NCBI GenBank assembly: GCA_051294905.1 | Contig: CM119371.1 | Coordinates: 16,432,001 to 16,496,000, forward strand | Direction: 5' to 3' | Length of the DNA stretch: 64,000 nt | Origin: Botryllus schlosseri | Lineage: Eukaryota | Shown: positions 1 to 31,500 of the stretch, in pieces | Layout: every line of letters begins with the position of its first letter | Position numbering within the stretch: the stretch's first letter is position 1 | Notes under the pieces: generated by a model | Seen by the model: the letters and a program-made list of their open reading frames with translations, nothing else | Databases searched by the model: none | Told to the model about the DNA's origin: nothing | Program-made: the position numbers and the translations under genes

Positions 1-1164
1 TTCAGCACGACATTTCAACTTGTCACAATAGCTGATTATTCACATATTGATTTGGAGCTAAAGAAATCTTGAACAAGTTATCGGGTTATGTTTTGTTGTA
101 ATTGAGTGTACGGAAATAGTATCACGTGTCGACATCTTACCATCTTACCATATTCAAAGAGTCAACCACAAAAACATTATCAAGTAACTCCGTTTGTAAC
201 TTACCCGACCAACTCAAACAGTATCAGTATGAAAAACAGCCAAGCATACACGAGTCCATAGCAACACTAAAACCTAAAATCCATAACAAGTTCGGTTGTA
301 ATCATATGCCGCCAACTCGTCTTTTTTGTTCAACTGTAAAAGTCGTTACTATTCTGCGAAATTCTACTCGATATATTTTGTAAGACAAAAGTAATTACTA
401 CTCGGTGCAGGTGACTTGAGATTATAACATAATATGTTTGAGTATACGAGATTTGAAAGTCCGACCAACGTAGTTGAGAATTCATTTCTTACAATCGAAC
501 GGTGGTGTTATATTCAAAGTTATCATGCTGTGAACATAAGGATTGACACATTGATTTGACAAATGAGATTTTGTCATAGTTGATCAATACTTCATTTTTA
601 AATTATTTGCGTTAATTAGACCCGGCGCTGTGGTAAATGTTATGACAACAATAAACTTTTCAGTGCAATTGTTATTAACATATTAAATTGTAAAACTATG
701 CGTGTCTGAAATGTTCTTGATAGGAAAATTACTCCACCTTGGTAAAAATCACTCTGCGTATCGCGGATGTCAGGAAATATTTTACAAATGTAATTGTTTC
801 CAGTAACCAAGACTAAAGACGAAACAACAATATCGATAATATTACATTCAACATCCAGTACAATTATTAAAATCTATCGTTTGCTATAACCGGTGCTAAA
901 GATGTAATAATTCCATTATTCATGTATTGAACACCCGATACAAAATGCTTTATTATCACAATTCGTAACGAGTAATTGTAACGACTAAGTGTAGAGTCAG
1001 TATATCACAATGACACGTCGTTACTATTGAACCCAGCAATTGATACGATTTATTGTCGGGATTTGTGACAGCGCATTGAAACATACACAGCTTACAGAGT
1101 GTGAAGATATCACTTTGGGTATCGAGTACCGTTTGAAGCGTGCGATCAATACATAATTCCGTTC
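1..1164 (+). repeat. Left inverted arm (visible part)
   Basis: Base 1 pairs with 14518, 254 with 5620 and 1164 with 4710. Only isolated substitutions were noticed (near 503 and near 1097). It holds the single-copy empty site GTCCATAG at 254-261. Confidence 0.95.
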
Positions 1165-3514
1165 GCACTCTCTAAGACATTGTGAAGTCTACAGATTTAC
1201 ACTTCAAGACTTTCATCAACACAGAAGCAATTTGGAATATTTTTACTGGACGCATCCTGTTCTACTAGACTTGAGTATACGCAAAACTCATAGCATTAAC
1301 AAAAATCGTAATAGGCGCTACACCGAAATCTACAAAATGTGTTTGTATTGTTGCTCAAAGTAGTGATCATGAATTATCATTTGAATCTTCTAAAGTAATT
1401 GAAATCGTAAAACCAAACTTGTGAAAGTCATTACCATAACAAAAGAATATTGTAGGTTGCTTGCTAAATGTATGCCAGAAATTTTGTAGAACGCTCACGA
1501 CCAAAGAAATCGGAAATTTCCCCCCATTGTCATTCGTCAAAGTAAATGTCGTCACAATACTCAGTCAGTAAAAGACGTTACTTGTATGTGATTGAATCGC
1601 CGGTAATTAACTCGCTAAATCAAACCCTAAGGAAATTTCACTCACTCATCGGATATTAAACAGCGTCGCTTGATCGGTGTAGATCGTTTTTTCTAAATGC
1701 AAATCAGACCTAGCCAACAGAAAACAATTTTCACTCACCCGGTAATGACACCAAGTGGTGGGCTTTCTTTCAATATTTTGTTTGTGTCAAATACTTTGCA
1801 ATAAACACGCTGGAGTGGTTGAGCTTTACATCATCAAGCTGTCATCTGTAAATCGAGATTACATCCGACTTGTAACTCTATCGTTTAACTAACCGAGTTG
1901 TATGCACAGTTTGATATTTTGGTCATTTAGTGATTGCTGAACATACCAAACGATACACATTCACTTCCGAAATACTGCATTCATCTCAATTCCCTTTGTC
2001 GTGATAATCAAAGTACTTTTGTTTCGATTTCATAACAACCGACTTCGACACGACGAATTTTTGAAAGTTATGCTAAGAAGATTGGTTGCATATCTCGAAA
2101 AATAATATACCACTCATATTAATACTGTTACTCGTTATTTTCCCGTTGTCGATTTTCAAACGAGTAAAATTTATTACTTGAGTTGCTCTGCTCACTATAT
2201 TTAAATGTAAACTCGCCCGTCTTTCAACAACAAACAATGTTAAAAAAGTATGCAATCAAACACAACAAGTTTTACTTTTGTAGGACACTAATTATTATTC
2301 CACGTATCTCATTTCATACTAAGTGTATATGAAAGATATTCATGGTACACGAAAATATTCGCTCGATATTCCCATGCTACGAACCTGCACAATGATTGGT
2401 GGTGCTTTCAAACTGTTTCGATGTCACAAGAACTTTATTGTCTGAATGGTTGTTCGTGTATCTTAATAATCAAATAGTTCGACACAGAACTAGTACTAAC
2501 AGAAACATCAGAGTTGTTTACACAAAAGTTTGTATGTGTACAGTATGCGAATACCATGTGTAAGTCCAGCACAATTGTAGTAACCATCCGAGTTTAGTTA
2601 ACACAATTTACGACACCGAGGTCGCGTCATTTTTCGTAAAACAAGAAACCAACCAAACCTTCAGGATATGTCCATGTCATAGCAATAAATCAGCTACTCC
2701 AACAACAGAGTACATATGTTTTCTAGTTACGACCCTTACATCTTACACACAAATCTTACACACAAATAAATCTACTTTGCTAACGAAAAGTGCTGAGTCA
2801 TCACATGATTGTCCTCACAACAATACAACTAAAACATACTATCATACAAAATGGTCGTTATAGTTTGCACACCAACGATACATCGTACAAGTAACAAGTC
2901 TCGAGAATCCAGTTATTGAAAAAACGTGAAAGTATTTCCCCTGCACCAAGTCGTTATGTTGACGAAAGCGTGTATTGTAATATCATGATCGATTCGCATT
3001 CGCTGGTCACAAACTGTCACTACTCTAAATAATTATTTTTCAATCAAACACAAAAGCATACTTATCACCATTCGTTTTCGTCAAGCACGAGTTCAAGAAA
3101 CTTACTTACTACGACATGAATTGTTATTTTTATGTTGTGTAAATAGGTAATAATTAATTTGAGTAACACTATATCAACATCATCGAGTTGTGCGAATAGA
3201 TTTACATGTGGTCTTGTGGTTTTAATCGAAGCACACATCGTGGTCTAATGTAGAGTCATCTCTATTGTACAGCAACTCGGTAATCGAAATGCATGCATTA
3301 ACATTTAAACAACGATCTTGGTTCGGCACGCGAAAAATATCTTTACTGTCCCGACACTCTGATACTCTGCACAAGATGTGTAAATCCTTATGACACTCAT
3401 AATAGCAATTTCATTCTTTCCCTTCGTAATTGTATACGCACGAAAATTATATTGTACAAGTCGGCAACTACGTTTAACAAGACCAATCACACTACCAGCG
3501 TTGAACACACGATA

Positions 3515-3930
3515 CCTACCCAAGTAAAAATATCATTTTCGTTTGGACAACTGACGTTTACCTGTGTAAAATTACCATTTTCACTTGGAGGTATGCCGTT
3601 ACCTGAGTAAAAACACCCTTTTCCTTTGGAGATCTATCGTTTACCCAGAGTAACAATACATTTTCACTTTGGGTTCTATCCTTTCGTAGGGAAACAAAAC
3701 CCTTGTCGTTTGCAAATCTATTTGTTTCCTACAACAACAAACCATTTTCACTTGGAAAGATACTTTTACCTAGAGTAACTAATCATTTTCTTTTTGGAAA
3801 TATATTTTCTCCTGGGTAAGAAACCCTTTTCGTTTGGAAAACTGTCATTTACCTGAGTACCAATACCGTTTTCACTTGGAAATCTATCTTTTCCCTGGGT
3901 AACAATATCATTTTCGTTTTGAAAACTGAC
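3515..3930 (-). repeat. Degenerate ~42-bp tandem repeat (about 10 units), reads as a 14-aa repeat on the minus strand
   Basis: Recurrent TTACCTGAGTAAnAAnAnCATTTTCnnTTGGA-type units. ORF 3766-3999(-) gives ...FQNENDIVTQGKDR FPSENGIGTQVNDS FPNEKGFLPR...; the rest is frameshifted. Confidence 0.75.
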
Positions 3931-4709
3931 AACCACACCGGACAATTTGATATTTTTGTATATTGTTACAACGGGCAGTGACAAAATATACACCAACAAC
4001 GACTCCGATACATTTGTCTAATCAAATATTCACTTGCTCTGATGCATCCCATCAAAATCATTGGTTACTCACATACAATAACAATGTGCTGTTGTACATC
4101 GACATGTATGTTTTCAGAATTGGCGAATAAAGGGGTTTCCGATATGTCCGTGATGTCCGGGTTCGTGCTTTGGATTTTCCAGAGTCAAAATGTCTGAATA
4201 AAACACCTCCTCGACTTTGGTAACTGATTGATACACGGATTATGGTGTTCGGAAAACGGATGAATTTATGTTCCCCATCGCGCTAACAACTCCGGGTTAC
4301 TTGTGAGTTTCCTCAGGTCTGTTTACTAAATTGTGTCTTTACTGGTCAATACATATCGCTCCAGTCAGCTGAAACCGGATCACTAATATGAGAAAGTGTG
4401 TGGGCCGGATCCGGATATTCACTCATGAACCAACGACCAATATTCAAGTAAACATGTTACAGACCGTGTTTTGTCTCCATGAAAAATACCAATGCATACA
4501 CCATCACATCAAGTACGTCACGATTGTTCATACACACCAAGTATTCGCGTAAACGAGGTGTACATACAATGTGTCGGTGTACAAACATCATGGAAAACAA
4601 ATTCATGTTCTCAAGTCTCATCATGCGACGACTCTGTACATTAAATGTGGGCATAGATGACTTGGAGACAGGCAAGCAGCCATATATTGCCGTAACATGG
4701 TCTTAGTAT

Positions 4710-5620
4710 GAACGGAATTATGTATTGATCGCACGCTTCAAACGGTACTCGATACCCAAAGTGATATCTTCACACTGTGTAAGCTGTGTATGTTTCAATG
4801 CGCTGTCACAAATCCCGACAATAAATCGTATCAATTGCTGGGTTCAATAGTAACGACGTGTCATTGTGATATACTGACTCTACACTTAGTCGTTACAATT
4901 ACTCGTTACGAATTGTGATAATAAAGCATTTTGTATCGGGTGTTCAATACATGAATAATGGAATTATTACATCTTTAGCACCGGTTATAGCAAACGATAG
5001 ATTTTAATAATTGTACTGGATGTTGAATGTAATATTATCGATATTGTTGTTTCGTCTTTAGTCTTGGTTACTGGAAACAATTACATTTGTAAAATATTTC
5101 CTGACATCCGCGATACGCAGAGTGATTTTTACCAAGGTGGAGTAATTTTCCTATCAAGAACATTTCAGACACGCATAGTTTTACAATTTAATATGTTAAT
5201 AACAATTGCACTGAAAAGTTTATTGTTGTCATAACATTTACCACAGCGCCGGGTCTAATTAACGCAAATAATTTAAAAATGAAGTATTGATCAACTATGA
5301 CAAAATCTCATTTGTCAAATCAATGTGTCAATCCTTATGTTCACAGCATGATAACTTTGAATATAACACCTCCGTTCGATTGTAAGAAATGAATTCTCAA
5401 CTACGTTGGTCGGACTTTCAAATCTCGTATACTCAAACATATTATGTTATAATCTCAAGTCACCTGCACCGAGTAGTAATTACTTTTGTCTTACAAAATA
5501 TATCGAGTAGAATTTCGCAGAATAGTAACGACTTTTACAGTTGAACAAAAAAGACGAGTTGGCGGCATATGATTACAACCGAACTTGTTATGGATTTTAG
5601 GTTTTAGTGTTGCTATGGAC
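4710..5620 (-). repeat. Right inverted arm, inner part
   Basis: Reverse complement of 254-1164; ORF 5491-5712(-) shares its C-terminus with ORF 126-383(+). Confidence 0.95.
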
Positions 5621-5763
5621 CAGTGATGAGCGGAGTCTGCTTTTCGAGACTCCGAGTCCCTCCGACAACTTTGGTCTCTGAGGCAAAATCCCTCCGACTC
5701 CGGGGATCTCAATCCCAGACTCCGAGATAACCCGAAGAATCTTGTCCAGTCCCCGAAATATAT

Positions 5764-6403
5764 TCAGACCATTGCCGAAGAATCCCAATCGATGTTTTCG
5801 ATAGCCTGTCTGATATTCATACCAGTTTTTTTAGTATCCGTGAATTGCCGAACAGTCGCAACATTACTTCTGAGAGTCAAGTTCTCTCCAACAAAATGGA
5901 CAGTCAAGCTAATAGAACTGCGACCCTTTAGATCGGTCCACATATCTGTGGTGATGCCAGCCAGCCCATAACACTTGATAGCAACTCTTAGTTCCTCTGA
6001 CAGCTTCTGCTTCAAAGACGAAGCCTCCTCATCGAACTTACGTTTCACCGTAAATCTGGATGGCAAAACGTCTTCTGCACAACACCACGGCAAACCGGCA
6101 CTTCTTCGGTATTCTCCACCCGGCGATCAGTGTTCCCCATGATCACCTTCTCCTTTGATTACTCGCTTACTTGCATTTCAACTGCGATCAATTCTTCTTA
6201 CAAGCTTCGATATGTCTTCGAAGATGCGACGTACCACTTGTCAACTTGTGATGCTTCAGCTGAACATTGCAATTTTGACATCTCGCAAACCCAGTATACT
6301 GGCCGTTATTATCATGCAGCATCAGAGTGAAATCCTTCCACACGTCACTCTTTTTCTGCGTCTTAGTGAGTAACCCACTTGACGTCGACGGTGCTTCAGC
6401 CAT
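5764..6403 (-). pseudogene. Truncated hAT transposase (BED zinc finger plus N-terminal part of the RNase H-like catalytic domain)
   Basis: 6188-6403(-): KSDVWKDF...ARCQNC...TSGTSHLRRH (BED finger). 5764-6093(-): LPSRFTV...GITTDMWTD...SISLTVHFV...KKTGMNI (first catalytic Asp, 'TxDxWT'). Frames are broken and the sequence stops ~140 bp before the TIR, with no C-terminal dimerisation domain. Confidence 0.9.
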
Positions 6404-7499
6404 TATATTAAGACGACGAAGGAAGACCAGTCAGTTCGAACTAACTACCACTAACACCACTGAAATCGACGATCACATCACAGGTTTCAGTAAATTAAGT
6501 TCCGCATCGCCATGAAACAGTTGATGGAACTGCACTGCACTAAACATACATGATGCATCACTGACGCACAGATCGACGCTCCTTGAAGTTGACTAAATGA
6601 CTAGTGACTTCCAATTTTGAAGCTGATACATGATATCTGGAATTTGGAGTCTGAGACAGACCAGCAGCAGAAACTTGATTGCGGTGCTGATTTTTCATAT
6701 CACATCAAAGTCATTTCTCAATCAAACCAAACATTACATGACGAAAATTCAGAAGAGTTCTGGATGACTGACTACGTCAATCAATATTGAAGGAAGCGTA
6801 GTTGAGTTGATGCGAGCAGAGCAAAGCAGACGGTTGTAGTTATTTAGTGTGGCTGTTCAGAAATTCGGAATATTCTGTTTTTACAGGGTAAGATCAGCTT
6901 ACCTAAGTGATTTATGTATTGTTAAAATCTTTAAAGCGGGCTTAGATGCTGGTATGCCTCTGTGAGCGGATCTTACTAGCAAAAATTCGTCGCAATGTCA
7001 TTAAATCATGTAACACATTGCATAAGTTATTATTGTTTCCATCCAGATACTTGCTTGTTGTATGTATATTTCTCACAGATATAAAGGTAATATTGATGTA
7101 ACACTTATTATCGATATCTCTCACTGCAAATTGCAAGTACGATGAAAGTTGCGAACAGTTATCACAAAAGTGGTATCGGATATTATCTTGTTTCAACTGA
7201 TACCAACGTTGGGAATACATTTTCACAAAATGGACCTATTACTATATTGAATGTCATCAGGATAATGGGATATATTACGTTATGATCATCAACTTGCTGG
7301 AAGAATCAGGGTAGCCAAAGGCTGTACCATAGGGAAGCCCCGCTGTATGTTGCTGATTGTAAATGTTTCGCACAATTACTGCACTGTAAAAATTATTGTT
7401 GTAAAGTACCCTGTAATCAGCTTGTAATGGCGGACTGCAAGCTTGTGGAGGTTGTAAACGCCAAATGCAGGCACATAACAAGCTGTCGTGCTTGTAAAT

Positions 7500-8960
7500 T
7501 GACATGCTTCAGAAATGATGTCCAATAATGTACAACGAAGTTTGAACGTATACTCCAGACATATCTCATACATGATGTCAGACTGGCAACGCAGGTCGAA
7601 CACCCCCGGATATGACCAAGACATGACCCAGACATGACGTTTGAGTTGAAACGAAGTCCAAACTCACCCGGCATGATGTTCGATCTGCAACCCTGTCCGA
7701 ACATACTCCAAACATTTATTAAACATGATGTCCTGTTTCAACACAGTCCGAACACACCCCAGAATTTTGCCATACATGATGTTCGTGTCTCAAACGAAGA
7801 CCGCAGCACTCACGCCACACATATCCCAGACATGATTTTCCGGTGACAACGCAGTTCGAACACACATTCGATATGCCCAGACACGAAGTCGGAGTTGAAA
7901 TGCAGTCTGAACCTACTCCATACATGCCTCTGACATGATGTCCGAGTGTCAACGCAGTCCGAACACACCCCAGACATGTCCCATATACATAGTGTTCGTG
8001 CGATAACGCAGACTGAATTCACCCCACACATAACCCAGATATGATTTCCGAGTGACACACCCAGGCATGCCCAGACATGATGTCCGACTATCAACGCAGT
8101 CCGAACACACACCCAACATGCCCCCGACATATCCCAGACATGATGTCCGATAGAACACGCAGTTCGAACTTACTCCAGATATGCCTCTGACATGATGTCC
8201 GAGTGTCAACGCAGTTCAAACTCACCCCAGACATGCCCAGACATGTCCCAGACATGATGTCTGAGTGTCAAAGCAGTCCTAAAACACCCCTGATATTATG
8301 TTCGATTGGCAACGAAGTCGGAACCAACTCCAGACATGCCTCAGACATGATGTCAGAGCGTCAACGCAGTCCGAACGCACCCCCGACATGACCCAGACAT
8401 GATCTTTGAGTGTCGACAGAGAATAATGAACACGTCCCAGACATGCCTCAGACATGATTTCCGAGTGACAACACAGTTATAGCACACCACAGACATGCCC
8501 CAAACACGATGTCCTAGTGTCAGCGCATTGCAAACTCACCCCAGACATGCCCCATACATGATGTCTGAGTGTCGAGGCAATCCGTAAACACCCCTGACAT
8601 GATGTCCGATTGACTACGAAGTCCGAGCCTATACTCCAGATATGCTGCAGACATGCTGTCGGAGTGTCTAAGCAGTCCAAACACACCCCAGACATGACCC
8701 AGATCTGATCCACGGGGGCCAACGCAGCCCCAACATACATCAGCCATACCGCAGACATGAAGATGATTAAGTGGACACGTAGGCCACACTCTAGTCTTGA
8801 TGTTCGAGTGGAAATAACACAGCCCAAACGCACCCCAGATATACCGCAGACATGGTTTCCGATTGACAACATAATCCGAACACACCCTAGATACGCCCCA
8901 GATTTGATGTCCCACTGGAAACGTAGTCCATAATACTCCATACATACCGCAGGCATACTC
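7500..8960. repeat. Subterminal tandem array (variable ~43-65-bp units built on CCAGACATG)
   Basis: Repeating consensus approx. CCAGACATGATGTCCGAGTGTCAACGCAGTCCGAACACACC(CCAGACATGn)0-2 over ~1.45 kb, directly inside the left EnSpm TIR. Confidence 0.92.
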
Positions 8961-9922
8961 AAGACAACAGAAGTATTATGGTCATTATTTTCCATCATTA
9001 TTACTTTATTCACAGATCGTTAATGCATATTGTACAAAATAAAGACACGGCCGCGGTTGAACCTTGAACAGTTCGGTAAAAGTCCGCCAAAATGTTGCCT
9101 GCCGATTCCTTTCGTTTCGGCTTCACTGGACAGCAGAAGCTTTGCCGTCAGCTGTAGCGTTTGTTGCAGCTTAAGTCGAGATCATAGTCAGGCCGAATCT
9201 TATTGAGGGCTGCTATGTGTCGCGTCATTTGTAGATAGGGAGTGTTAGAGACGTAGTATCTATGTGCAGATTATGAGGTTGTGCATCATTCACCTTTAGT
9301 GAGTACCCTTTGACGTCATATCCGGCTTAATTCGTTTTGTAGTGAGATGGCGCGTTTTGTAGTAGATGGCGCGAATATGTAGTGAGAGTAGAGCAGAGCC
9401 CGGAAAGTTGGCAAGTTTTTCAGTCAGGATTATCTTATTCAGGGATTCCACCGATGCGATGGCTATATTATATAGCCTATATATTCTTGTGCAGTCGTGC
9501 TCAATTGATAACTGCAGCCAATATATTGGTACGTAGAAAAATTATATGTGATTTGGTGACTTTGCAGAATATAGAATTAGTCCTGTTTGCTATAGCGGAC
9601 GTATTCCATGAAGTAGACGATGTCAGCATTGGTTACCGTTACTAAAATGTTGTCTGGGATGGCTGATTCCAACGACGGCCAGTTAAAATTGAATTTAAAG
9701 AGAAATTCAGGTAAATTTCGGCCTCACAGGTCTAGTTAATTAATTACTTGGCATATTTGTGTTACAGATGCTCCAAAAGTGACAGATTTGCCTTGTATAT
9801 GGTCTGTGTAATTCCAATTGATGTGTCAGCATTGTGAATCTATTAATGACACAAGATTGGTAAGATACTCTGCCATCGGATATACTTGATGGTGTAGAAT
9901 TCAGCACAATTTTATCTTGCAG

Positions 9923-12859
9923 GTGATATGTCAAAGTGCTGGAGATGTAGGCCTACCCTGTGGTCTGCAAAAGTCAGAACAACGCAACAATGTTTCATCA
10001 ATCATGACTGATCTCGTAGCCTCTATACTGCGGAAGAAAATAAACAGATGTAGTCGAGTAAGTATTTTGTAAGATATATGTTTGGTGAACGTTTAACAAG
10101 ATTTTAGCTGTCAATCGGTACTGACTGCTTTCGAAATTGCAAGATGCCTATTCACGACTAATGGAAAATGACTGATAATGATGCTATGGCCATGTTTTAC
10201 TCCAGTTCAGCTCTGTTACTTCCACAGCCCAACTCACTGTGTACCAATTTTAGTGCAATCAGGTTGATTATATACGTGAACTTTTTGTTCAGACTTTCTC
10301 CGCCAACGCATGCGAGAAAAGAGGCATGTTCAGCTCTAATTCGGAAATATCCAATTCTGAAATTAGTTACTGCTGATGAAGATAATTTTCTTCCGCCATA
10401 TGTAAGTTTTGAGGCTTGCAGTGTGGAAATATCACACTCTGTCAAATTCGATACATTTTAGCACTCATGGATAACGAGACTCAACGACAAAATATATAAC
10501 GAGCATCGGAAAATGAAAGACACAGACGACCCGGTTCTCCTAGCAAACAGAAAAAAGTTCGGACGGACTGGCCCGCGGATACGGCTTCCTGCTGAAGAAT
10601 CGCCTACGGCAAGCCCACGATGCAAGAAACCCAGAAGTTCTGATGTTGCGGACGAAGTATGAAACTGCTATTTCAAGGGAACCTCAAGGTTGAGAACCAC
10701 TGATTCATATCAATTAAAAATTTCAGGAAATAGAATCGTTGACCAATGATAAAAGTTCAGCTGAACACAAGGCATTCATATTGTCGGAATCGAGTTCGTT
10801 AAACCCAGCGAAGGGAGAGCTATTGAAATCCATGAAAGCCACCTTCAAAGGTCGCCGGTCTGACATAGAAGCCTGCATGCCAACTGCTGAAATTCTTATG
10901 GAATATCCGCTTCTGAGAGAATCATATTGGGTAAGAAAAATATCATTTGTTCGATTTCTGTTTACTGGTAATTGTTGATGTTTCAGCTATTGGAGGAGAT
11001 AAAGATCATAAACAATGGTCTGAATATACTGGACAATATCCAAGAAAAAGCAATATTCTCTCAGCACGCGACAGAAATAAACTGGAGTCGCGTGCCAACC
11101 AGCATTACAGCTGTGATGGGTACGATGCTTCAAGAATAAAAATTATTGGATGTCTCAAACTAAGAATTTTTTTCAGATTCTGTGAAAATGAATTGGATGG
11201 TCGGTATACCTGCAATGTTCAAAGAGTCATACGACAAATTTTTGGTTATAGATCAGGTTCGTACCAAATACATACCATCATTGCATTACTATGAATATAA
11301 CCTTGCTGCGGTCATTATAAGCCAAGAGTTCGATATATTAGTTAGACAATAAGCTCAGCCCACTTCCGCATTGGCAATGTAATTAACCATTGCTTTGAAG
11401 AGGCCAAACACGATCGCTACCAAATACAGAGGCGTATACATGGATGCCTAACGCATTTCCTCGCAGATCGTGTAATACGTGTGAGGATAGCAATACCTCA
11501 ATATTGTAGTTCAGTGGTTCTCAACCTTTTTGACCTTGCGGCACCCTTTGAAAATTATAAATAGTTTGCGGCACACTAGCACAGTGGTTCGCAACATTTT
11601 TTGACGCCTCTGTAAACTGCCAGAATACTGCATTGTCACACAGGCGGCGCCATGTCTGCTGAATTCAGCCTTTCGAGCACACGATGGCATGACAGCAATT
11701 TCGTTTTGTCATATGTACAAACTTAAAATCGAGTCTTATGTAGTACTGATCATTTCCTACATCCTAGAATTATTTTGCACATAATTTCAAAATTTAGAAG
11801 AAATCTCTCACGGCACACCGGTTGAGAACCACTGCTGTAGTTCTATTGGCAGCCACCTGCAGCTCAATTATAGTTCCAACAAACTGGGACGGGGAAATTT
11901 GTTAGCTGATATAATTTGATCAACTATACTTTTCAATTCTCATATTCGGCACCTGTAACATAACGTTACGTTGCACTTCGCGCCTACATTTTAACGGCAG
12001 TACTGATACGCTACCTAACAATCGCAATGTGGATGGCTATGTTCGTCAAATTTTTTAACGGGACCGTCACTTCCAAGTGGGTTCATTTCTCGCTGGTAAT
12101 TAGGAAGACGATGAGGATATGCCGAGTAAAGTGAATTCGAGCGGGGTATTGATTGCGGGCGGGACCAATGTTCCCTCCAATTTTTACGAGTCAGCACACA
12201 CTCAATGCGCGGTTACTTGGACAACAGTACGTAACCACGAAAAAAAAGGTTATCACTTCGAATTTTTTGTGCGCAGCTTAGAGGGAACATTGGGCATGAC
12301 AGCAATTTTGATCCGTCAGATAGAGCCGATTTAGATTAATGATCATTTGCTGTATAAAGGCTGGAAGTATTTCGCGCATAATATCCTAATGTAGAAGAAA
12401 TCTCTTGAAGCACCCTTGCGAGACATAAATTGCACACAAGTGTGTCGCGGCATACCGATTGAGAACCAGTGTGTTAGTAAGTGCTGTACTCGTCATTGTT
12501 GGACCAATTACACCTGTTTGATAAAAAATTACTCTCGTAGTCGTACTACTCTCATTGCCTTTCAATATACAGATGTACCTTTCTTTTCAGGATGATTCGG
12601 AATCACCAAACCCAATCATACATTTGGACACTGGGAAAAAGATATGGACGGTACACTTTGATGGGATTAAGATTAATGACGTTGTAGATTTTATGCATAT
12701 GCATATGCTTTGGCTATCATTCTATCCCTGCATTGGGTATTTAATATCCAATTCAAGCGCAGTGTGAATAACACATTGCATTTCTTATCCATCTGCATTG
12801 GCAAAATCAAGGGACTGCGTGTACCATCTGCAGTCACTTCAATCTGTGATAACATGTGA
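9923..12859 (+). pseudogene. Spliced SAMD3-like (EnSpm accessory/ORF2-type) gene, frameshifted in the last exon
   Basis: Phase-compatible GT-AG exons 10293-10401, 10462-10656, 10727-10930, 10987-11119, 11177-11256 and 12591-12859 give ...ACSALIRKYPILK...PYHSWITRLNDKIYNEHRK...LLKSMKATFKGRRSDI...AEILMEYPLL...GIPAMFKE...SPNPII...ILSLHWVFNIQF...NTLHFL. These motifs are recalled from SAMD3-like proteins of animal EnSpm elements. Frameshift at ~12693-12708; upstream exons (9923-10057 and earlier) do not join cleanly. Confidence 0.75.
11512..11834. mobile_element. hAT (Charlie/Buster-like) MITE in the last intron of the SAMD3-like gene
   Basis: CAGTGGTTCTCAACC...GGTTGAGAACCACTG; flanks TTGTAGTT / CTGTAGTT (7/8). 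Extra related ends at ~11582 and ~12471 suggest a composite. Confidence 0.75.
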
Positions 12860-13467
12860 TATAGAAAGTGATTCGACTGATTTTACAACTAATGGACATT
12901 GATGTAAAGAATGATCAGTTATTAAGAAAATTTAGCTTTTTTGTAGTGCTAAATCACATTTTGAACTGCTCTGAACTTAATTTTTACTCTGCTACTTCTG
13001 TAAAGTACAAATAGAAGTGGAATAAGTTAGTATCTGGCCAAATTAACTGTTTCAGAGTACTTGCGTACTTTCCATTCATTTACTATACCACGAGAAGTAT
13101 CAGCACGTGGCAATTGCTGCCCCTGAGCAATAAATTATGACATTAGGTTTTACCCAAGTTCCCATGCTGAATAATGTGATCTTGCCTTTACTTTGACCTC
13201 TTCAATCTTATTAACACAGGTCTCTGATGGCCAAGTCGTGACACTTTTGTTATTGTTCCATACTGTGTTATTATACTGTGCTGACTGCTGGTGTTACTAC
13301 TGTTCCTGCTGCATGTGTTGCTTCTGCTTCATATTCATTTGCTGTATACAAAATGCCTGTTCTTTCTATTGATTTGTGAACAATTATGACCACCGTGCAT
13401 CATGTCAGTTGTACTGTCGAGTACTGCCAGTATCAGGTGCAAGATTATAGGTATGAGAAAGAGAGAG

Positions 13468-13640
13468 AGCTACAAGCTTATGGTTGTAGTGAGCTTACAG
13501 GGTTATGGCTGTAGTGTGCTTACAGGGTTATGGCTGTAGTGAGCTTACAGGGTTGTGGCTGTATAGTGAGCTTACAGGATTATGGCTGTAGTGAGCTTAC
13601 AGGCTTATGGCTGTTAGCTTGTAATGAGTTTGCAAGCTTA
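13468..13640. repeat. Right subterminal ~25-bp tandem array of the EnSpm element
   Basis: About 6 copies of GAGCTTACAGGGTTATGGCTGTAGT just inside the right TIR. Confidence 0.92.
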
Positions 13641-14265
13641 TGGTTGTAAGCCTGTATTGGAAATCACCAGGCTTTTTGTCGTAAATTTACAACAATAATT
13701 TTTACAGTGTGGAGTAGCATGAAAATTAGTCACGAAACAAATACGCAAGGAGGAATATGATGTGACTATAGAAGACTGCAATGACAGCAACGTGGAAGAT
13801 TCTGGAGATCTTATCTCATAATATGGTGACATTCAGCAGTGGATTCAAAGACTGCATCTCATTGCAGGGAGAAAATGATGCGCTGCGAACGATATTGGGT
13901 GTCTTCAAGTTTGTGAACTACAGACACTGCTCAGCGGAAATGCCTTGCTAGATCACTAGGTTACTCTCCAGTCCCCAATTGCAGTGCAGATGGCTGATTT
14001 TTATGCACTTGTCAATCATTTTTGCATGTTACCGGTCATATTACAACTTTACAAGGTGTCAACTGTCTGTGTTTTGGTTTGTAATCAATAGTGTCTTCTG
14101 GTCAAAGCTATCGAAAGATATCGGGGGCAAAACTAACAATACTCCGTAAAACTCCGGAAAAATATCTGTTGTAAACTCCGACTCCACTCCGGGTATCACA
14201 AAATTGGCAAAACTCCGCTCCGACTCCACTCCGACTCCGCTCCGGTGCTCATCACTGCTATGGAC

Positions 14266-16261
14266 TCGTGTATGCTTGGCTGTTTTTCATACTGATACTG
14301 TTTGAGTTGGTCGGGTAAGTTACAAACGGAGTTACTTGATAATGTTTTTGTGGTTGACTCTTTGAATATGGTAAGATGGTAAGATGTCGACACGTGATAC
14401 TATTTCCGTACACTCAATTACAACAAAACATAACCCGATAACTTGTTCAAGATTTCTTTAGCTCCAAATCAATATGTGAATAATCAGCTATTGTGACAAG
14501 TTGAAATGTCGTGCTGAAATTGCGAGCGGGAACAGTAGGCGCTTGTGTAAATGCGAAGACAGCGATGGTGGTCGTGTGAATAAATTAATCTGAGATACAA
14601 CGGAGGGAAATTTTGCGAGTATGTCTGACAAGTCTACTTCAAATCGCGATATGACAAAGTAGGTTGAAATATTTCGATTCAACTCATCGCATTGCAACTC
14701 GATCGCGTTATGTGCAAGCGGTTGTCAAGTTGGAAATGTTTACAACAATGGGCGATATTTCATTGATTGATTCTATTGTGTGTCGTAACACATTAAAATA
14801 CCGCGATGGTATTTACTGAAACTCTATTTGACAAACGGAAAACTGGATCGCGAATAGAGTTGTAAGTTTCAAGGATTGTTTCAAAGTATAATCTTGAAAT
14901 GCGACTGGATCAAAGTTGGTAGTCATGTTTGTCAAACATATTTCAATTCACACTATGCCAAGGTCCAAATTTTTCATTCTGGATTATCTGAATTTATCTT
15001 TAGTACATCCCGCGAATGGATTCCGACACCGCACTATAACATTCTTAATAATAAGGACTCAAGGATTTTCAATCAACAATACTGGAATTTTTTGGTAATG
15101 TTAGAGTTGGCAAATGATTAGTTGCGTGTTTTTGTTAAGCGTTTGATTTCCCAGTAATAAATACAACGATTGTATGTGCAATATAGGTCGCGCGCGATCG
15201 AAATCCTCTTGCACAACAGGCCGCGTTTCCAAACCGGACGTATTTAGTGGGTCACACATGTCAAAACGCAAGCGCAAACATCTGTTTTTCAAAAATCGCA
15301 CAATGCACTGCAGTTTCCGAAAGTACGAATCATCGCCGCATCCATAAGAATAACGATATATCATTGCCGCACTCCCCGTAAACGTTGGGATTACTTCAAA
15401 TTGGTCATATATAATAATTTGTGATATACACATTAACGAAGTGCCAATCACGTGACTATTTACTTGATACATATTCAACACCGTGTGAGAGATGCCTATA
15501 CCCGAAAGTACGATATGCCGACGCACCCATAAGAACACATGGCGAATCACCACCACAGCCTATACGCGAAAGTACGACGTGCGAGAGATGTCTATACCTA
15601 AAAGTACGATGTGCCAACACGAGTTTCCAATACGACATGCGAGAGATGCCTATACTTGAAAGTACGACGTGCGAGCGCACCCATAAGACACCACACGAGA
15701 GATGCCTATACCCGAAAGGGCGATTCATGACCGCACCCATAAGAACACATGGCGAGTCACCACAGATCCCGTAAGAATACATGACAGGCGAATCACTGCC
15801 ACCGCCTATACCAAAAAAGACGAATCACCACCACGAGTTTTCACGGCGAATCACCACCACGACCTATACCTGAAATCACGACCGCACCCATAAGAACACA
15901 TGGCGAATCACCGCCGAGAGGGAGGTCTAAAAAGGCGATTCACCACCCCAGTTTCCAGGCGCATCACCGCCGCACCCATAAGACATAAGAGCCGCTTGCC
16001 ACCCCCGCCGTAAGACGCAACAGCCGCTTGCCACCCCCGCCATAAGACATAAGAGCCGCTCGCCACCCCCGGTTTTCCAGCCGCATGCGACCGCGCCCAT
16101 AAGAAATAAGAGCCGCTTGCCACCCCCGCCATAAGACGCAATAGCCGCTCGCCACCCCCGCCATAAGAAATAAGAGCCGCTCGCCACCCCCGCTTTCCCA
16201 GCCGCTCGCGACCCCGCCCATAAGAACCCCTGCCAGGTCACGAGCGATCATACTAACTACT
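14266..16261 (-). repeat. Right inverted arm, outer part
   Basis: 14266-14518 is the reverse complement of 1-253 (seen). Continuation to 16261 is inferred from the terminal repeats and the AGTAGT-type end. Confidence 0.7.
15480..16230. repeat. Subterminal tandem repeats of the Maverick-like end
   Basis: 15480-15910: GAGAGATGCCTATACCCGAAAGTACGA, CGCACCCATAAGAACACATGGCGAATCACC units. 15970-16230: GC-rich ~32-bp CCATAAGAnATAAGAGCCGCTyGCCACCCCCG units. Confidence 0.9.
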
Positions 16262-16589
16262 CTCGTATTCACGGAAAATTTTACTTTTTGCAAGTTCTAA
16301 AACGCCCGAGATAAATTATTGTGATCCCAGCAAACTGATGCTTCGAGACATTTGTTCATCAGTAACTCCCGTGACGTCACACTGTACTAGTGACGTCCCT
16401 TTGCACCGCATGCCTAAGCACCTCCGATTATTTCCGAGAGCACAGGCTTTCATAATATATGTGATGGTATAATGGTCTCTTATATTCAGCATGGTATACT
16501 TTATGATAGGCATAAGATATAACAAATAACATTTCGATGACATTTAAATTCTAAACTAATATTAAAATGTTTATTCGGACTCTATTCAG

Positions 16590-19500
16590 GATATCTTAGC
16601 TGCCTTTCATTGGCTCTCAATGGACAACACCAGAAACTACAAGAATCTACAGGAAACGCTATCTTCCGCCGTCATTCCTAATTATATTCTGCTTGGAGTA
16701 GCAATCATTGCGGACGAGGAAAAGTGGCGAGTTGTAACTTCAATTTCAAAAACACGTGAGCTTGGCGCTATCTGTGCGATCAAGCACGATTATAGGCCTA
16801 CGCATTTGTCATTTATGATGATACCATATAGGTGAAGACACGTTGAGACATCTACAAAAAATACTGCTGAAGTTCCTAGAATCGAAGAATAAAAGCACAC
16901 CGATAAGCGATGTCAAGGATCTCCGAGTTCTCCGCCAATGCGGTCCTCTTCTGGCACGTGGTGTTATGACGAGAGTCACCGCGATCAAATTGAACGCAGA
17001 TTGTGACGCATCTGATGTTATATCAGTTGCACAATCGATTCCATCCATTGTTAGAGCGAAAGTATATGGCAGCATGAAGATTTATTCGTCGTCACTTGCA
17101 TTACTAGAAGCAAACGTTGCTATGAATGTAAGTTATAGTTCATTGAGAAATGTTTTACATACATTAAATAACACTGTAAAAATAGAACAATATTCACAAC
17201 ATGTGCTAGTGCTATAGCAGTGGTTGGCATCGTTTTTAAGACACGAAACCAATTCAAAAGAAATTGAATTCATATAAGTTTAAATTAACACACGAGCTTG
17301 ATTTACCGAAAGAAATTTCTACTGAATGAATACTGATTAGCCATATAGCTTACCGGACCACGACCTGACACATCGATCACGCCTTCCGACACATGCCACT
17401 TTTTTGTCACCTGTCCTTTTATAATATTTTCTTTTACTTATGGTGCAGTGTGCACTGTGCATGCCTCCTTTTTTACATTGTCCAGAGCAGATGGATGTCT
17501 GATTTCGAAGACTACTCCAAGTCGTTTCGACACCTTCCCATCGTTTATTGTATCGCAGTCTTGCTCTTGTGGTGTATTGAAATGACAAAATCTTGAGCAA
17601 GTGATTGATTTTAATTGAATTGAAATATTATAAATTTGTCACGAAGTTTACTTTACACTGCGACGATCGCGCTATCTTTGAAGCCACACCTTGACTTTGC
17701 ACAAGCTCAGTCGCATGCCATGCTCTATTCCCTATAGATTGCGATGTTTCGTTTTTACTACAGCCCTCTTATGTGGTCAACGACGGAATAAGTCAACAAC
17801 ATTTGACTGGGTTGGGTACCTTGAGTGCATCAGCATTAAAAAGTAGAGACGAGTCAGGGCTTAAATGTGATCATAAACAGAGCTTATAGGGCAGGACACA
17901 TGAGCCTGTTGCCAATTTGCAGACTCCACAGATACGTTCTTCCATCAGCCCGGCAAATGTATTCAATGATTTCAGTGTAATGACGTAATTGGTTTGGCTG
18001 ACGGGGCATAGAACAGTAAATCAAACCGACTAATTAGACAAACAGTCATCTGCAGTAGGCCTACTGTACGGGAGTAAAAACTTGTTTATTTCTATACTGC
18101 ATCATGACAATCTGAGCTCTGAATCGAATGCTATTATCGCAATGATTGCGAAATTCCTAATATTAGTAATATATCAGGGCACCAGAATTCCCCCAAAATC
18201 GCAAAGGAATTTAAAAATTGAGTTCACTACGTATACTGCCAAGTGCCAACGCAATTTAACAATACGGTGTTAAGCATAAATTAATCAGCCGCAACGATCG
18301 TTGGACTACAATCCGACAATGGTAACGCAGTGTGAGACTGCGCGTTTGACTTCAGACGATTTCTCTATCCGACGGCACAGTTAGATGTGATGTGACCGCA
18401 GGAAAGTTAAGGTTGGCTCACATGGGGTCGCGACCTACAAAGTGCGAACCAGAGTTGGATCAATTGTAATTTGTAATTGAGCTGAATGTAATTAAATACA
18501 TTTTCAATGTAATTGTAATGTAATTGTAATTGAAGCATTTTTATTTTGTGTAATTGTAATTGTAATTGTAATTTGACAAAAATTTTGCTTAATTACAATT
18601 TCAATTACATTAAATTGCTATTGAGAGTTGAGACCTGACAAGCACAACATAAAATAATTGACTTATAATGCATTCTCTTTAAATGTCGACAAGGAATTTG
18701 GTGGATCCATTCGCGGAAGCCCTTGACTGCGCCCTCGCGGGCGAAGTTTTTTACCGCTATGCTGGCCTCGGCTGCCATTGTATACAATTTTCAGATTACT
18801 AACCAACGGATAGATTCGCAACCCGTGACTCACGATTGAATACGCCGAGAAGCGAACTGCTGAGCCGGCTAAAAGCAGCAGAATTGATAGTCCTATAGCT
18901 GGCGATCCAAGCGTCGAAATTTGATATGTATGGTCCTAATCGAAAGCTAGTGTCGCACTGATTCCGCATAAAAGTATATTTCCAGGCAATGGTACCATCC
19001 CAAAATAGTCGAGAAAGTCTGGGAATCGGCATTGTTCTGAACAATCGCTGGGCGTAATTGGTCATTGTTGTGGTCATGCTGCTGCGGCGCTCTCACTTTT
19101 CAGAACAGTCGGCCTTAAACGGCTATTTTGGAGCAGTTACATTGCTCTGCTGAGATTTTAATTTGTATTTTCGGAATTAGTGCATCAATAGCTTACGATA
19201 AAGACCAGATGCATGAAATTTGGACGCTTGGATCGCCAGCTCTAGGACTACAGAGTTTGCTGCTTTTAGCTGGCTCTGCAGTACGTTTGTCGGTGCATTC
19301 ATCCGTGACTCACATCTTGCGCATTTATCCGTGGGTTGGCAATCTACAATACGATTTCAGATCACGATGCTGCATCGTTACTTCGTCTGGCTAGCTAACC
19401 AGACCACTGGATATTATATAACGTCTTATCTGACAAAGCACGGTATTGTTTTTACTCCTCATCCTAATTCCTACGTCCCACGATAAAAATAATATTATTT

Positions 19501-28500: not shown

Positions 28501-31500
28501 CACTTCGCAGTGGTTCCGTGAATTTATAAATATGGCTACTTTATTTTCCCACTGGGTTGGCGGTTACTGCGTGTAGTTGGCTGTTAGTTTAGTTACAAAA
28601 GTCATGCTTATCAGTAAAGATTCTTGCCGTATCACAAAACTACTGATCCGGACAAAATTGGAAAAATCCGGCCGGATGTCCAATCCGGCTCCGGTCCATG
28701 CTCCGCACTAATGGGTGGTTAAATAAGCGAATAATGAATAGATTCAGGAATCTGGAGCGCCGACTACTTCATTTTCCCATATCCGGCCCGCCGACTGGAG
28801 AAGTATCCTACCCCTGACATATAGGCTACGTAGTACATTCCACTACTTAGACAACGATAGAATAAACGCTCGAATCCGACAGAAGTCGATCCCAGAATCC
28901 CTTTCAAGGTCATGCAGATTTATATTGGCTCCTCTTTACCATCCTATCCGCATGGACCTAGAACGAAAGAGCGCCGTGTTATATGTCGGTAGCTGAGAAT
29001 TAATCAATTATAGAATATCGATCTGGCGGCTCGTGAATGATGCGAACTGTAAATGTATTGTATTTTTTGGATAAGATACAACAGTGGTGCTTATGGCCTT
29101 ATGAGACTTTGTGCTCCACGACAATGGCACAATGCCACAATGGCAATTTCAACAGTTCAATGCATTGTTTCTTGGCGACATTTCCTGCTCTCTCTCTCTC
29201 TCTCTCTCTCTTCAATACGCATTCATTCAAATGATCTTTGCTGCTGACTGTCAAGCTCGGCTCACTGTACTTTATGGGCTTTTTAAGTCACTGCAATCGC
29301 AGTGAAGTCAGCGATGAGGAGCCCAGATAAACCTCTGACACATAGAAACTTGGTAGAGCCCACACTCGAACCAACAACCATTGGTGTCATGACGGTGTCG
29401 TTTAGCTTGGCACACTTCGCCACTCGCTTCCCAACTGTGAATGTAGAACCATACCAACGTTGCAGAAAGAACGAAAAAGTAGCGAAAATGTTTATATCTG
29501 GATTTGTGACTGGCTGTGTCCGCTTCCTTTGTCAGTTGGAAGAACTTGCAGTCGACGGCAATTTCATTGATCCGATGCAACTATGCCTGGAAAACGAATC
29601 GCGATTGTTGATCGTTTCCAATATACGATCTTGTGACGGAACTGACATCAAGTTTAAGCACGATCAGAACAATACGGTGAGAGGTGGTACATGACATTAC
29701 TTTGACAGCAATAGTTTGGGCATATATAATTGGGGAAGAATTTAGCCATCTCTGAGACTCAGATGTTCAACTGCTCAGAGGTCAACTAATTACACGCGAA
29801 CGATATTTATTGAAAAGGTATGTGCAATGTGCATGCTGGTTGCAATGCTATCTTAATGCCTCGCGCTTACTTATGCCAAAAACTATAGTGACGAGAGATT
29901 CTCGATTTGGGGCAGAGGCCGCACACTTAACCACTTTTCCGCACTCGAATCGACCTTCATCAAGATCAATCAACAGCGCTTATGCCAGCAGAAGGAGCGT
30001 TTGCATCGGCTATAAATTGGCCACTTGCTGCGCTCGCGGTTTGCCTGTACTCAATTGGATGTATGCAATGTAGTTTTATGCGAGTTTTTGGAATTCTCTA
30101 TATGCTGACAAAAGCTCCTGAAGAGTGTCAGCTCGAAAAGCTTCGGGTTTTAAATCATTTATGATACGAATATATTATTAACATGTATATTAGGGCTGTT
30201 CAAAAATAACTTTTTTTCCTGAATCTTGATGGTTACTTGATTAAATCGTTAGGTTGCCTTAAAAAACGACGCACACCAAATTTGAATTCATTCCGACAAA
30301 TATTCGCGGGTTACGTAGAGTTTGAAAATTTTGGATTTGCCCAAAAACGCAAAAAAATTTTTTTTCCAAATTTTTCTGCCAACCCCATGAAATTGTTGGG
30401 CTGTCTTCAAAAACTATGCAAAACAAATTTGACTCAATTCCAAGCCGTAGAAGCGGAGTTATTCCAGTTTTTCGGTGATAATTCTTGGATTATCCACCAA
30501 TCAAGGATAATCCCAGAATTATCGAATAAAAACTGAAATAACTCCGCTTCTACGGCTTGGAATTGAGTCAAATTTGTTTTGCATAGTTTTTGAAGACAGC
30601 CCAACAATTTCATGGGGTTGGCAGAAAAATTTGGAAAAAAATTTTTTTTGCGTTTTTGGGCAAATCCAAAATTTTCAAACTCTACGTAACCCGCGAATAT
30701 TTGTCGGAATGAATTCAAATTTGGTATGCGTCGTTTTTTAAGGCAACCCAACGATTTAATCAAGTAACCAGCAAGATTCAGGAAAAAAAGTTATTTTTGA
30801 ATAGCCCTAATGTATATCTTAATGACGATCAACGCCGATATGGAGGCCGATAGATTTATTGCGGTGCTTCCATATCGCTTGTGAGGTATTAACCATATTA
30901 AAAATGGAAATGGCGTATTCCAAATTGCAAAGTCACATAACACATTAAAATAAAATTAGTTACAGGCATTTTAAGGCAGTGACTCGTGCCAAGGCAAGTC
31001 ATTGAAAAAAAATGGTCCAAGTCTGACATGAGTCATCAACATTGGGTAATACATATTGGATATAAGGATTAATGGATATAATAGAAAAGCCTTCAGAGCC
31101 TTGTGACTAATTGGTACCCAAGAGTGCAGACTAAGGGTTAGAGATGTATTCACGACATAGACTTAATGAGGCCTCGAACTATTTATGAGTAATCTGTTCT
31201 GTTCAGTAGGGGTGTTAAACTATGATTTTTTTTTAATTGAACTGGCTACTTCATAAACTTGTTAGGTTACCTGAAAAGAACTGCACATCAATTTAGGATC
31301 AATTCCCACCTATAGTGGCACCGATATAAGTAGGATTGCATTTAAACCAATGTTTGTTTAAAACACTTCGTTCAAAACATGTCACAAAATTAGGTTTTTT
31401 CAAGTTGTATAATTATGCCATAATCGTGTAAATACTTACCATAAAACATCTTGTATGAGCCTACGGAAGAATACCACCCGATGTAGCCGACGTATACGAT

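What the first reader, a model, noticed from the sequence alone, without database searches (positions are those of the whole stretch)
1..16261. Gene-less Maverick/Polinton-like element with giant (~2.9 kb) near-identical inverted arms
Seen: 1-1164 is almost perfectly inverted at 4710-5620 plus 14266-14518, and the right side continues through GC-rich tandem repeats to an end whose reverse complement is AGTAGTTAGTATG. Known: Polintons have 5'-AG termini with short AGT/AG repeats, 6-bp TSDs and TIRs usually of hundreds of bp. Inference: without the hAT insertion the element is ~9.36 kb (2907-bp arm + 3545-bp core + 2907-bp arm), about 60% TIR. Arms and core look like decayed coding DNA, yet the arms are nearly identical. 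This suggests a recently mobilised non-autonomous 'satellite' of a Polinton/adintovirus whose arms were extended and homogenised by panhandle-type replication.
Basis: partly seen in the sequence, partly recalled or inferred. Interest (0 to 1): 0.78.

Follow-up and report, generated by a model that had tools for sequence, protein, structure and literature searches.

The report
Gene-less Maverick-ended element, matched long arms
This is one copy of a many-copy jumping DNA element in an animal genome that has no recognisable genes, ends like a virus-like Maverick/Polinton transposon, and keeps its two long mirror-image arms almost identical, which hints at how such elements copy themselves.

Summary
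The structure is real. The arms match at 1162 of 1164 visible bases. An 8637-bp hAT with an 8-bp TSD, holding a CACTG-ended element, splits the right arm. In 3 of 3 DNA runs, arms and core are a high-copy repeat. The left arm/core junction and hAT-free arms occur in all three; the junction sits at about 110-140 times single-locus depth in one run (rough). Three alleles rare in the family (1.1% of depth or less) sit in both arms, so the arms evolve in concert. The right end carries the Maverick (ACT)2 motif. The left end and TSD lie outside the window and no genome was held, so Maverick membership is likely but not shown. No gene was found, and 'decayed coding DNA' is not supported. Best reading: a recently copied non-autonomous Maverick satellite whose arms are homogenised during fold-back replication. 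Arm plus core is 6.45 kb, like the arms of 13-14.5-kb Maverick-ended palindromes this scan noted earlier on other DNA of this genome (unchecked), so the arms may be shortened rather than extended.

The parts
1..1164 (+). Left inverted arm, visible inner part (runs off the window)
   Evidence: 1-253 mirrors 14518-14266; 254-1164 mirrors 5620-4710; 2 mismatches
1165..4709 (.). Core, 3545 bp, single in this copy but high-copy in the genome; no gene detected
   Evidence: depth
3523..3924 (+). Degenerate 42-bp tandem array inside the core
   Evidence: 7.7 copies, 66% matches, at 3602-3924; 3.6 copies at 3523-3672
4710..5620 (-). Right arm, inner 911 bp
   Evidence: joint 1165/4710 on opposite strands in 3 of 3 DNA runs
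5613..5620 (+). 8-bp target-site duplication of the hAT, first copy (CTATGGAC)
5621..14257 (-). Inserted hAT-type element (11-bp TIR CAGTGATGAGC), about 2.3 kb of its own plus a nested element; not part of the Maverick-like element
   Evidence: hAT-free joints 5609>14262 and 5613>14259 in 3 of 3 DNA runs
5764..6430 (-). Two open pieces read as the N-terminal part of a hAT transposase (weak BED finger); too short for a whole transposase
   Evidence: PF02892 E=0.018, below the curated cut-off
7382..13709 (.). Nested element with CACTG-started TIRs and a 2-bp TG duplication (CACTA/CMC-like by its ends; label from recall), with 52-bp subterminal repeats
   Evidence: empty-site joint 7379>13710 in 3 DNA runs and the RNA run
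14258..14265 (+). 8-bp target-site duplication of the hAT, second copy
14266..16261 (-). Right arm, outer 1996 bp
   Evidence: for 14266-14518; high-copy depth to the 15961-16508 bin, single-copy beyond
15484..16226 (+). GC-rich subterminal repeats (about 32-bp and 121-bp periods)
16256..16261 (+). Proposed terminus ACTACT, the 3' half of the (AGT)2//(ACT)2 Maverick end motif
   Evidence: only ACTACT in 15900-16400; motif as in PMC8097293
16262..16267 (+). Candidate 6-bp TSD CTCGTA; unverified because the left end is outside the window
   Evidence: sequence; inference

Best explanation
A recently inserted copy of a non-autonomous, gene-less satellite of a Maverick/Polinton, in a family of roughly a hundred or more copies. 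SHOWN: the TIR-core-TIR build, high copy number, the same left inner arm boundary in many copies, concerted change of the two arms, later interruption by a hAT, and a Maverick-type motif at the one visible end. INFERRED: a helper Maverick supplies protein-primed PolB and integrase in trans. The displaced single strand folds back so that its arms pair into a panhandle ('racket') several kb long. Mismatch repair or re-priming in that duplex copies one arm onto the other at each round, so mutations gathered by a source lineage appear in both arms. Integrase then inserts the product with a 6-bp TSD. After insertion the arms drift apart (2 differences so far) and the hAT landed in one arm only.
For: Arms 99.83% identical. 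Summed contig depth over arms is about 1,800-7,900 times the unique flank in 3 of 3 DNA runs (not a copy number). The arm/core junction has depth 9322 in X7 against 66-83 for a single locus, about 110-140 fold, and is 8-13 times a nested low-copy element in X7 and X12. At 3 of the 4 arm substitution sites listed (4895, 4949, 5105), alleles other than the majority one make up 0.6%, 0.4% and 1.1% of depth in X1 and none in X7 or X12, yet both arms of this copy carry the minority allele (mirror sites 979, 925, 769 are not among the two mismatches). Of 14 listed core sites, 2 are at single-copy depth in X1 (2481, 3460) and 12 are shared with other copies; about 3 post-insertion changes are expected from the arm divergence. 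This fits a young copy of a diverged sub-lineage. End motif matches 5'-(AGT)2//(ACT)2-3' (PMC8097293 passages). The racket-shaped single-strand intermediate is the standing model for Polintons (PMC4196379 passages).
Against: No TSD, left end or helper could be seen (terminal loose ends were among the 3599 not shown). No Maverick protein remnant was found, so kinship rests on one 6-bp motif that has a 6-23% chance of occurring in the relevant span. Only 40 of 676 differences were listed, chosen by the tool, and contigs drop rare variants, so allele absence in X7 and X12 is weak. The non-majority depth is an upper bound on this copy's allele. Core depth is not half of arm depth (1.2-1.6 times), so the family is not simply many copies of this arm-core-arm build. 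Most laid contigs are 90-99% alike, so the family as a whole is not young.
Confidence: 0.6

Rival explanations
1. Same family and helper as the best reading, different origin of the shape (not exclusive of it): the copy is an asymmetric derivative of the 13-14.5-kb palindromic Maverick-ended elements. Arm plus core (2907 + 3545 = 6452 bp) is one whole long arm, and the other long arm has lost its inner 3.5 kb and the spacer. The arms were shortened, not extended.
For: 6452 bp falls in the 6.2-6.8-kb arm range of earlier scan notes on this genome (unchecked AI notes). Core depth is 1.2-1.6 times arm depth instead of 0.5. The left junction's depth is close to local core depth (X12: 219 against 223-250 at 1214-1482), as expected of a native junction.
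Against: No sequence comparison with those palindromes was possible. By-sequence look-ups were blank, but so was a control repeat, so they say nothing. Summed contig depth is not copy number. No loose end at 4709/4710 was among those shown.
Confidence: 0.4
2. A foldback-type non-autonomous cut-and-paste DNA transposon (Galileo/P-like or MULE-like) with long, internally repetitive TIRs. Gap repair or recombination homogenises the arms, and the AGTAGT end is chance.
For: Long TIRs with internal tandem repeats and TIR extension by recruiting internal sequence occur in non-autonomous Galileo copies (PMC3573991 passages). Subterminal repeat arrays are present. The motif can arise by chance. No Maverick protein trace.
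Against: Galileo TIRs reach about 1.26 kb, and the longest pair was 95.2% identical, against about 2.9 kb and 99.8% here. The end matches a published Maverick motif. Earlier notes report 6-bp TSDs on similar elements in this genome (unchecked).
Confidence: 0.17
3. An old insertion whose arms were made alike in place by gene conversion between nearby inverted repeats, not during transposition.
For: Runs from other studies hold at most about a third of the sampled words of 1165-5620, so this copy differs by a few percent from their copies. It has taken up a large composite insertion.
Against: Only 2 of 14 listed core differences are at single-copy depth in X1; an old copy should carry mostly private changes. 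Identity is equally high on both sides of the 8.6-kb insert. The nested element's internal insertions are also present in X12's copies, so the stack need not have built up here (table 8).
Confidence: 0.12
4. A local inverted duplication or an assembly or polishing artefact.
For: The window is one assembly, and no laid record spans the whole element.
Against: The inverted junction is in 3 of 3 DNA runs from 3 studies at high depth. hAT-free arms exist. The arms differ by two bases and by a TSD-bounded insertion.
Confidence: 0.04

Closest known systems
Autonomous Mavericks/Polintons (vertebrate survey PMC8097293, passages; nematode survey PMC10748475, passages; anole element PMC3014272, passages)
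   Same: TIR-bounded; (ACT)2 3' end motif; multi-kb size; dispersed copies.
   Different: No pPolB, integrase, ATPase, protease or capsid detected; about 9.4 kb against 12.7-24.6 kb; TIR at least 1164 bp and about 2907 bp by extrapolation, against 46-1447 bp; far higher copy number than the fewer than 10 in anole, where no non-autonomous copies were seen; TSD untested.
Butterfly polintons with about 2-kb TIRs and polB-less, TE-carrying polintons (bioRxiv 10.1101/2025.02.07.637071, passages and sections 12-13)
   Same: Kilobase TIRs; loss of autonomy; nested transposon inside the element.
   Different: Those TIRs carry hexon and protease genes and the elements keep most core genes. Here no gene is detectable, and the hAT is in one arm of this copy rather than shown to be amplified cargo.
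Galileo 2-TIR and 2RT non-autonomous copies (PMC3573991, passages)
   Same: Non-autonomous copies made largely of long, internally repetitive TIRs whose length changes.
   Different: P-superfamily cut-and-paste, 7-bp TSD, TIRs up to about 1.26 kb, no AGT end motif reported in the passages read.
13-17-kb palindromic Maverick-ended elements noted earlier by this scan in the same genome (unchecked AI notes)
   Same: Maverick-type end, near-identical arms, no core genes, hundreds of copies reported.
   Different: They are about 93% palindrome with 6.2-6.8-kb arms and a spacer near 0.9 kb; this copy is about 62% arm with a 3.5-kb core. Sequence kinship was not testable.

Membership tests
Maverick/Polinton | Terminal inverted repeats | tested here: met
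   1164 bp of arm verified; junction in 3 of 3 DNA runs; extension to the left end is outside the window
Maverick/Polinton | End motif 5'-(AGT)2//(ACT)2-3' or (AG)3//(CT)3 | tested here: inconclusive
   ACTACT at 16256-16261 where repeat depth falls to single-copy; only one end visible; chance 6-23%
Maverick/Polinton | 6-bp target-site duplication | not testable with these tools
   no genome held; terminal loose ends not shown
Maverick/Polinton (autonomous) | pPolB and retroviral-like integrase genes | tested here: not met
   longest stop-free frame in core or arms outside the terminal repeats is about 100 aa, 152 aa where one overlaps the repeats; Pfam on all six frames of core and arms with X at stops: two chance-level hits only
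Maverick/Polinton (autonomous) | ATPase, protease, major and minor capsid genes | tested here: not met
   same Pfam scans; one core frame against 1.84 billion proteins gave one non-family singleton; suspected penton remnant unsupported
Maverick/Polinton (autonomous) | Size about 13-25 kb, TIR 100-1500 bp | tested here: not met
   about 9.36 kb and about 2.9-kb arms without the insert (left end extrapolated); ranges
Non-autonomous Maverick derivative | Dispersed multi-copy family with a conserved boundary | tested here: met
Non-autonomous Maverick derivative | Terminal sequence shared with an autonomous Maverick in the same genome | not testable with these tools
   no genome; collection scans gave only chance matches
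Foldback/Galileo-type cut-and-paste element | Long TIRs with internal tandem repeats | tested here: met
Foldback/Galileo-type cut-and-paste element | 7-bp (Galileo) or longer TSD and a cognate transposase | not testable with these tools
   left end not available; no transposase hit in arms or core
hAT (the insert) | Short TIRs with 8-bp TSD | tested here: met
   empty-site joints

The most novel reading that the evidence does not exclude
Mavericks in this animal have spawned a large family of gene-less, DNA-only satellites, similar to defective snap-back genomes of viruses but fixed in chromosomes. Their arm length is reset during fold-back replication. This 9.4-kb copy would be a short-armed member of the series that includes the 13-17-kb palindromes, and its shared rare alleles record arm-to-arm copying at each round. 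Arm length and allele sharing across copies would then test the racket-intermediate model of Polinton replication directly from genome data.
Probability: 0.35. Interest if true: 0.8.

Novelty: new variant of a known kind. Interest (0 to 1): 0.55.

Why it matters
Polinton replication through a folded single strand is a model drawn from sequence (PMC4196379 passages). A high-copy family whose multi-kb arms share rare mutations gives a natural record of arm-to-arm copying that can be tested by comparing copies. It would also show that a virus-like transposon can be outnumbered by gene-less parasites, as cut-and-paste transposons are by MITEs. Such elements would be missed by gene-based Maverick surveys. 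Six full-text searches (listings seen, nine papers read in passages or sections) showed no report of gene-less Maverick satellites with multi-kb arms. The library lacks most subscription papers and Repbase reports, and no supplements were read.

Tried and rejected
Whole-genome checks: none held. Terminus scans: IMG/VR 17-mer gave 2 loci and a gapped pattern gave 72; JGI metagenomes 20-mer gave 0 and a gapped pattern 34. None of the 72 or the 34 aligned to the element at E<=0.05, and the first two matched only the 18-base seed; all taken as chance. Penton-remnant idea for the minus strand near 1265-1645, a resemblance from recall: no PDB sequence hit, no homologue among 53 candidates, no family hit in the 1.84-billion search, single-sequence model pLDDT 34 (uninformative); rejected as unsupported. 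P0001 (137 aa, singleton on a 729-bp ENA contig) matches core 1930-2343 but switches between two reading frames of the window (compare), so it is read as a called ORF on a diverged copy of the same repeat, not a conserved protein. Low-stop frame in the outer arm (14402-15121 minus): 0 of 48 candidates scored. 80-aa ORF at 4460-4702 minus: no homologue; Atlas best score 0.76, low recognition. Codon periodicity: mean chi-square 5.8 (left arm), 7.4 and 4.7 (core), 6.4 (outer arm) against 6.3-7.8 in five background stretches; stop counts in core plus frames are lowish (48-61 against 81 in base shuffles, but background frames also fall below their shuffles). RNA: no listed holder on record as RNA; about 6% of one RNA run gave depth 0-4 per strand on arms and core, and 93% of laid reads ran on into unlike sequence; no conclusion drawn. 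By-sequence look-ups in earlier findings were blank, control blank too. The sigma-70 scan was irrelevant for an animal genome.
Full report
Observation. Self-BLASTN finds 254-1164 inverted at 5620-4710 (911 bp, 99.78%) and 1-263 inverted at 14518-14256 (100%). Base-by-base comparison gives two mismatches in 1164 bp and a sharp inner boundary at 1164/4710. The right arm is interrupted by 5621-14257, bounded by 11-bp TIRs and the 8-bp duplication CTATGGAC at 5613-5620 and 14258-14265. These are hAT hallmarks (established knowledge), with a weak BED-finger hit (E=0.018). Inside it lies a second element, 7382-13709, with CACTG ends and a TG duplication. Without the insert the right arm is 2907 bp and the core 3545 bp. 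The arm ends in GC-rich repeats and then ACTACT at 16256-16261, the only such hexamer in 15900-16400. The left end is outside the window and no genome was held.

It is a multi-copy family. Twenty of 24 listed runs, from 9 studies, hold part of 1165-5620. I laid 4 of the 24 on 1165-17600 at 90% likeness. In all three DNA runs arms and core are far deeper than the unique flank at 16509-17056 (arm means about 142,000, 147,000 and 1,400 against 18, 81 and 0.58). These sums are inflated by overlapping contigs and are not copy numbers. A better gauge is the opposite-strand joint 1165/4710, the left arm/core junction, which was not in the laid reference. It appears in 3 of 3 DNA runs, at depth 9322 in X7 against 66-83 for a single locus, about 110-140 fold. 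hAT-free arms (joints 5609>14262 and 5613>14259) are in 3 of 3 runs. Depth drops to single-copy after the 15961-16508 bin, and a single-copy contig begins at 16308, so the repeat ends near the proposed terminus. The terminal loose ends that would have shown flanks were among 3599 not displayed. A local duplication or assembly artefact is therefore unlikely.

The arms change together. Most laid contigs are 90-99% alike to the window, yet the arms differ by 0.17%. Of the four arm substitution sites listed, three (4895, 4949, 5105) have non-majority depth of only 0.6%, 0.4% and 1.1% in X1 and none in X7 or X12, while both arms of this copy carry the minority base. The fourth (4903) is common in X1 (44%). 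Independent origin in both arms is implausible, so one arm has been copied onto the other. Of 14 listed core sites, 2 are at single-copy depth in X1 and 12 are shared with other copies; about 3 post-insertion changes are expected from the arm divergence. This favours a recent copy of a diverged source lineage over an old copy converted in place. The caveats are real: only 40 of 676 differences were listed, the tool chose them, contigs drop rare variants, and X1 may be the sample the window came from.

No genes. Pfam on all six frames of core and arms with X at stops gave two chance-level hits, E=0.16 and 0.08. One 600-residue core frame searched against 1.84 billion proteins returned a single unnamed singleton. 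That protein switches frames against the window, so it looks like another copy of the repeat with no frame conserved. Three targeted homologue searches found nothing, and an Atlas look-up gave only low scores. Codon periodicity equals background. The claim of decayed coding DNA is unsupported, though very old remnants would escape these tests, and only one of the six core frames went through the deepest search.

Mechanism. Most likely (0.6) this is a helper-dependent Maverick satellite. The end matches the commonest vertebrate Maverick motif, (AGT)2//(ACT)2 (PMC8097293, passages). The standing model has a single-stranded Polinton folding into a racket whose paired TIRs template protein-primed synthesis (PMC4196379, passages). 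With multi-kb arms that duplex would erase arm differences at each round. The helper, the fold-back intermediate and the 6-bp TSD are all inferred. The motif alone is modest evidence: about 6% by chance in the 82 bp between the last repeat and the first single-copy contig, 23% in 347 bp.

One result does not fit a family of simple arm-core-arm copies: core depth is 1.2-1.6 times arm depth instead of half. Arm plus core is 6452 bp, within the 6.2-6.8-kb arm length of 13-14.5-kb Maverick-ended palindromes that this scan noted elsewhere in the genome (unchecked notes, which also report some 55-60 gene-carrying Mavericks). This copy may be one whole long arm plus the outer 2.9 kb of the other, so shortened rather than extended (0.4). 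I could not compare sequences: the look-ups were blank for the element and for a control repeat. Other rivals are a Galileo- or MULE-like foldback element (0.17; PMC3573991 passages), in-place conversion of an old copy (0.12) and artefact (0.04).

Comparison and novelty. It fails the tests for an autonomous Maverick (genes, size, TIR length), so it is not filed as one. It probably works as a Maverick-dependent derivative. Published TIRs are 46-1447 bp in vertebrates and 100-1500 bp in general (PMC10748475 passages). Butterfly polintons with about 2-kb gene-bearing TIRs and polB-less, TE-carrying copies are the nearest published cases (bioRxiv 10.1101/2025.02.07.637071, sections 12-13). Anole showed no non-autonomous copies (PMC3014272 passages). 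Passages of PMC11414722, PMC6431247 and PMC9863843 added only background. Six searches listed no paper on gene-less Maverick satellites with multi-kb arms; the library is partial and supplements were not read.

Verdict: real, mobile, gene-less as far as tested, with directly supported concerted arm evolution. New variant of a known kind; interest 0.55.

Noticed in passing
window 7382-13709: A 6.3-kb element with CACTG-started TIRs, a 2-bp TG duplication, 52-bp subterminal repeats and what look like short-intron exons on the plus strand (about 9700-11300, no Pfam hit). Low copy (depth about 1000-1200 in X7 against 66-83 single-locus); RNA reads cover parts of it.
   Followed up: partly
window 5621-7381 and 13712-14257: The hAT without its nested element is about 2.3 kb and holds only the N-terminal part of a transposase. 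RNA depth is 10-26 per strand, and the empty-site form is in RNA reads (34 reads). Nine RNA molecules end at 6406, three bases upstream of the likely start codon.
   Followed up: partly
window 1560-1831 and 2598-2909: Other family members skip 270 bp and 310 bp of the core (joints), so internally deleted variants exist; the 42-bp array and subterminal repeats also vary in length.
   Followed up: no
window 3523-3924: The 42-bp tandem array is a multiple of three and reads on the minus strand as a 14-residue repeat with few stops (ORF 3766-4017); no Pfam hit.
   Followed up: partly
window 16389-17409: Run X7 has contigs identical to the right flank over about 1 kb but shows none of this copy's rare alleles; the insertion may be absent from that haplotype, though contigs cannot show absence.
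   Followed up: no
window 30177-30823 (related pieces at 35602-35952 and 45834-45990): A 647-bp almost fully palindromic repeat (94.6% self-inverted) with partial copies in the window; also a 68% palindrome at 18793-19345 and a 77% one at 32751-33066.
   Followed up: no
window 17350-17610: A separate high-copy repeat (depth as high as the arms), with a diverged inverted copy at 50087-50331.
   Followed up: no
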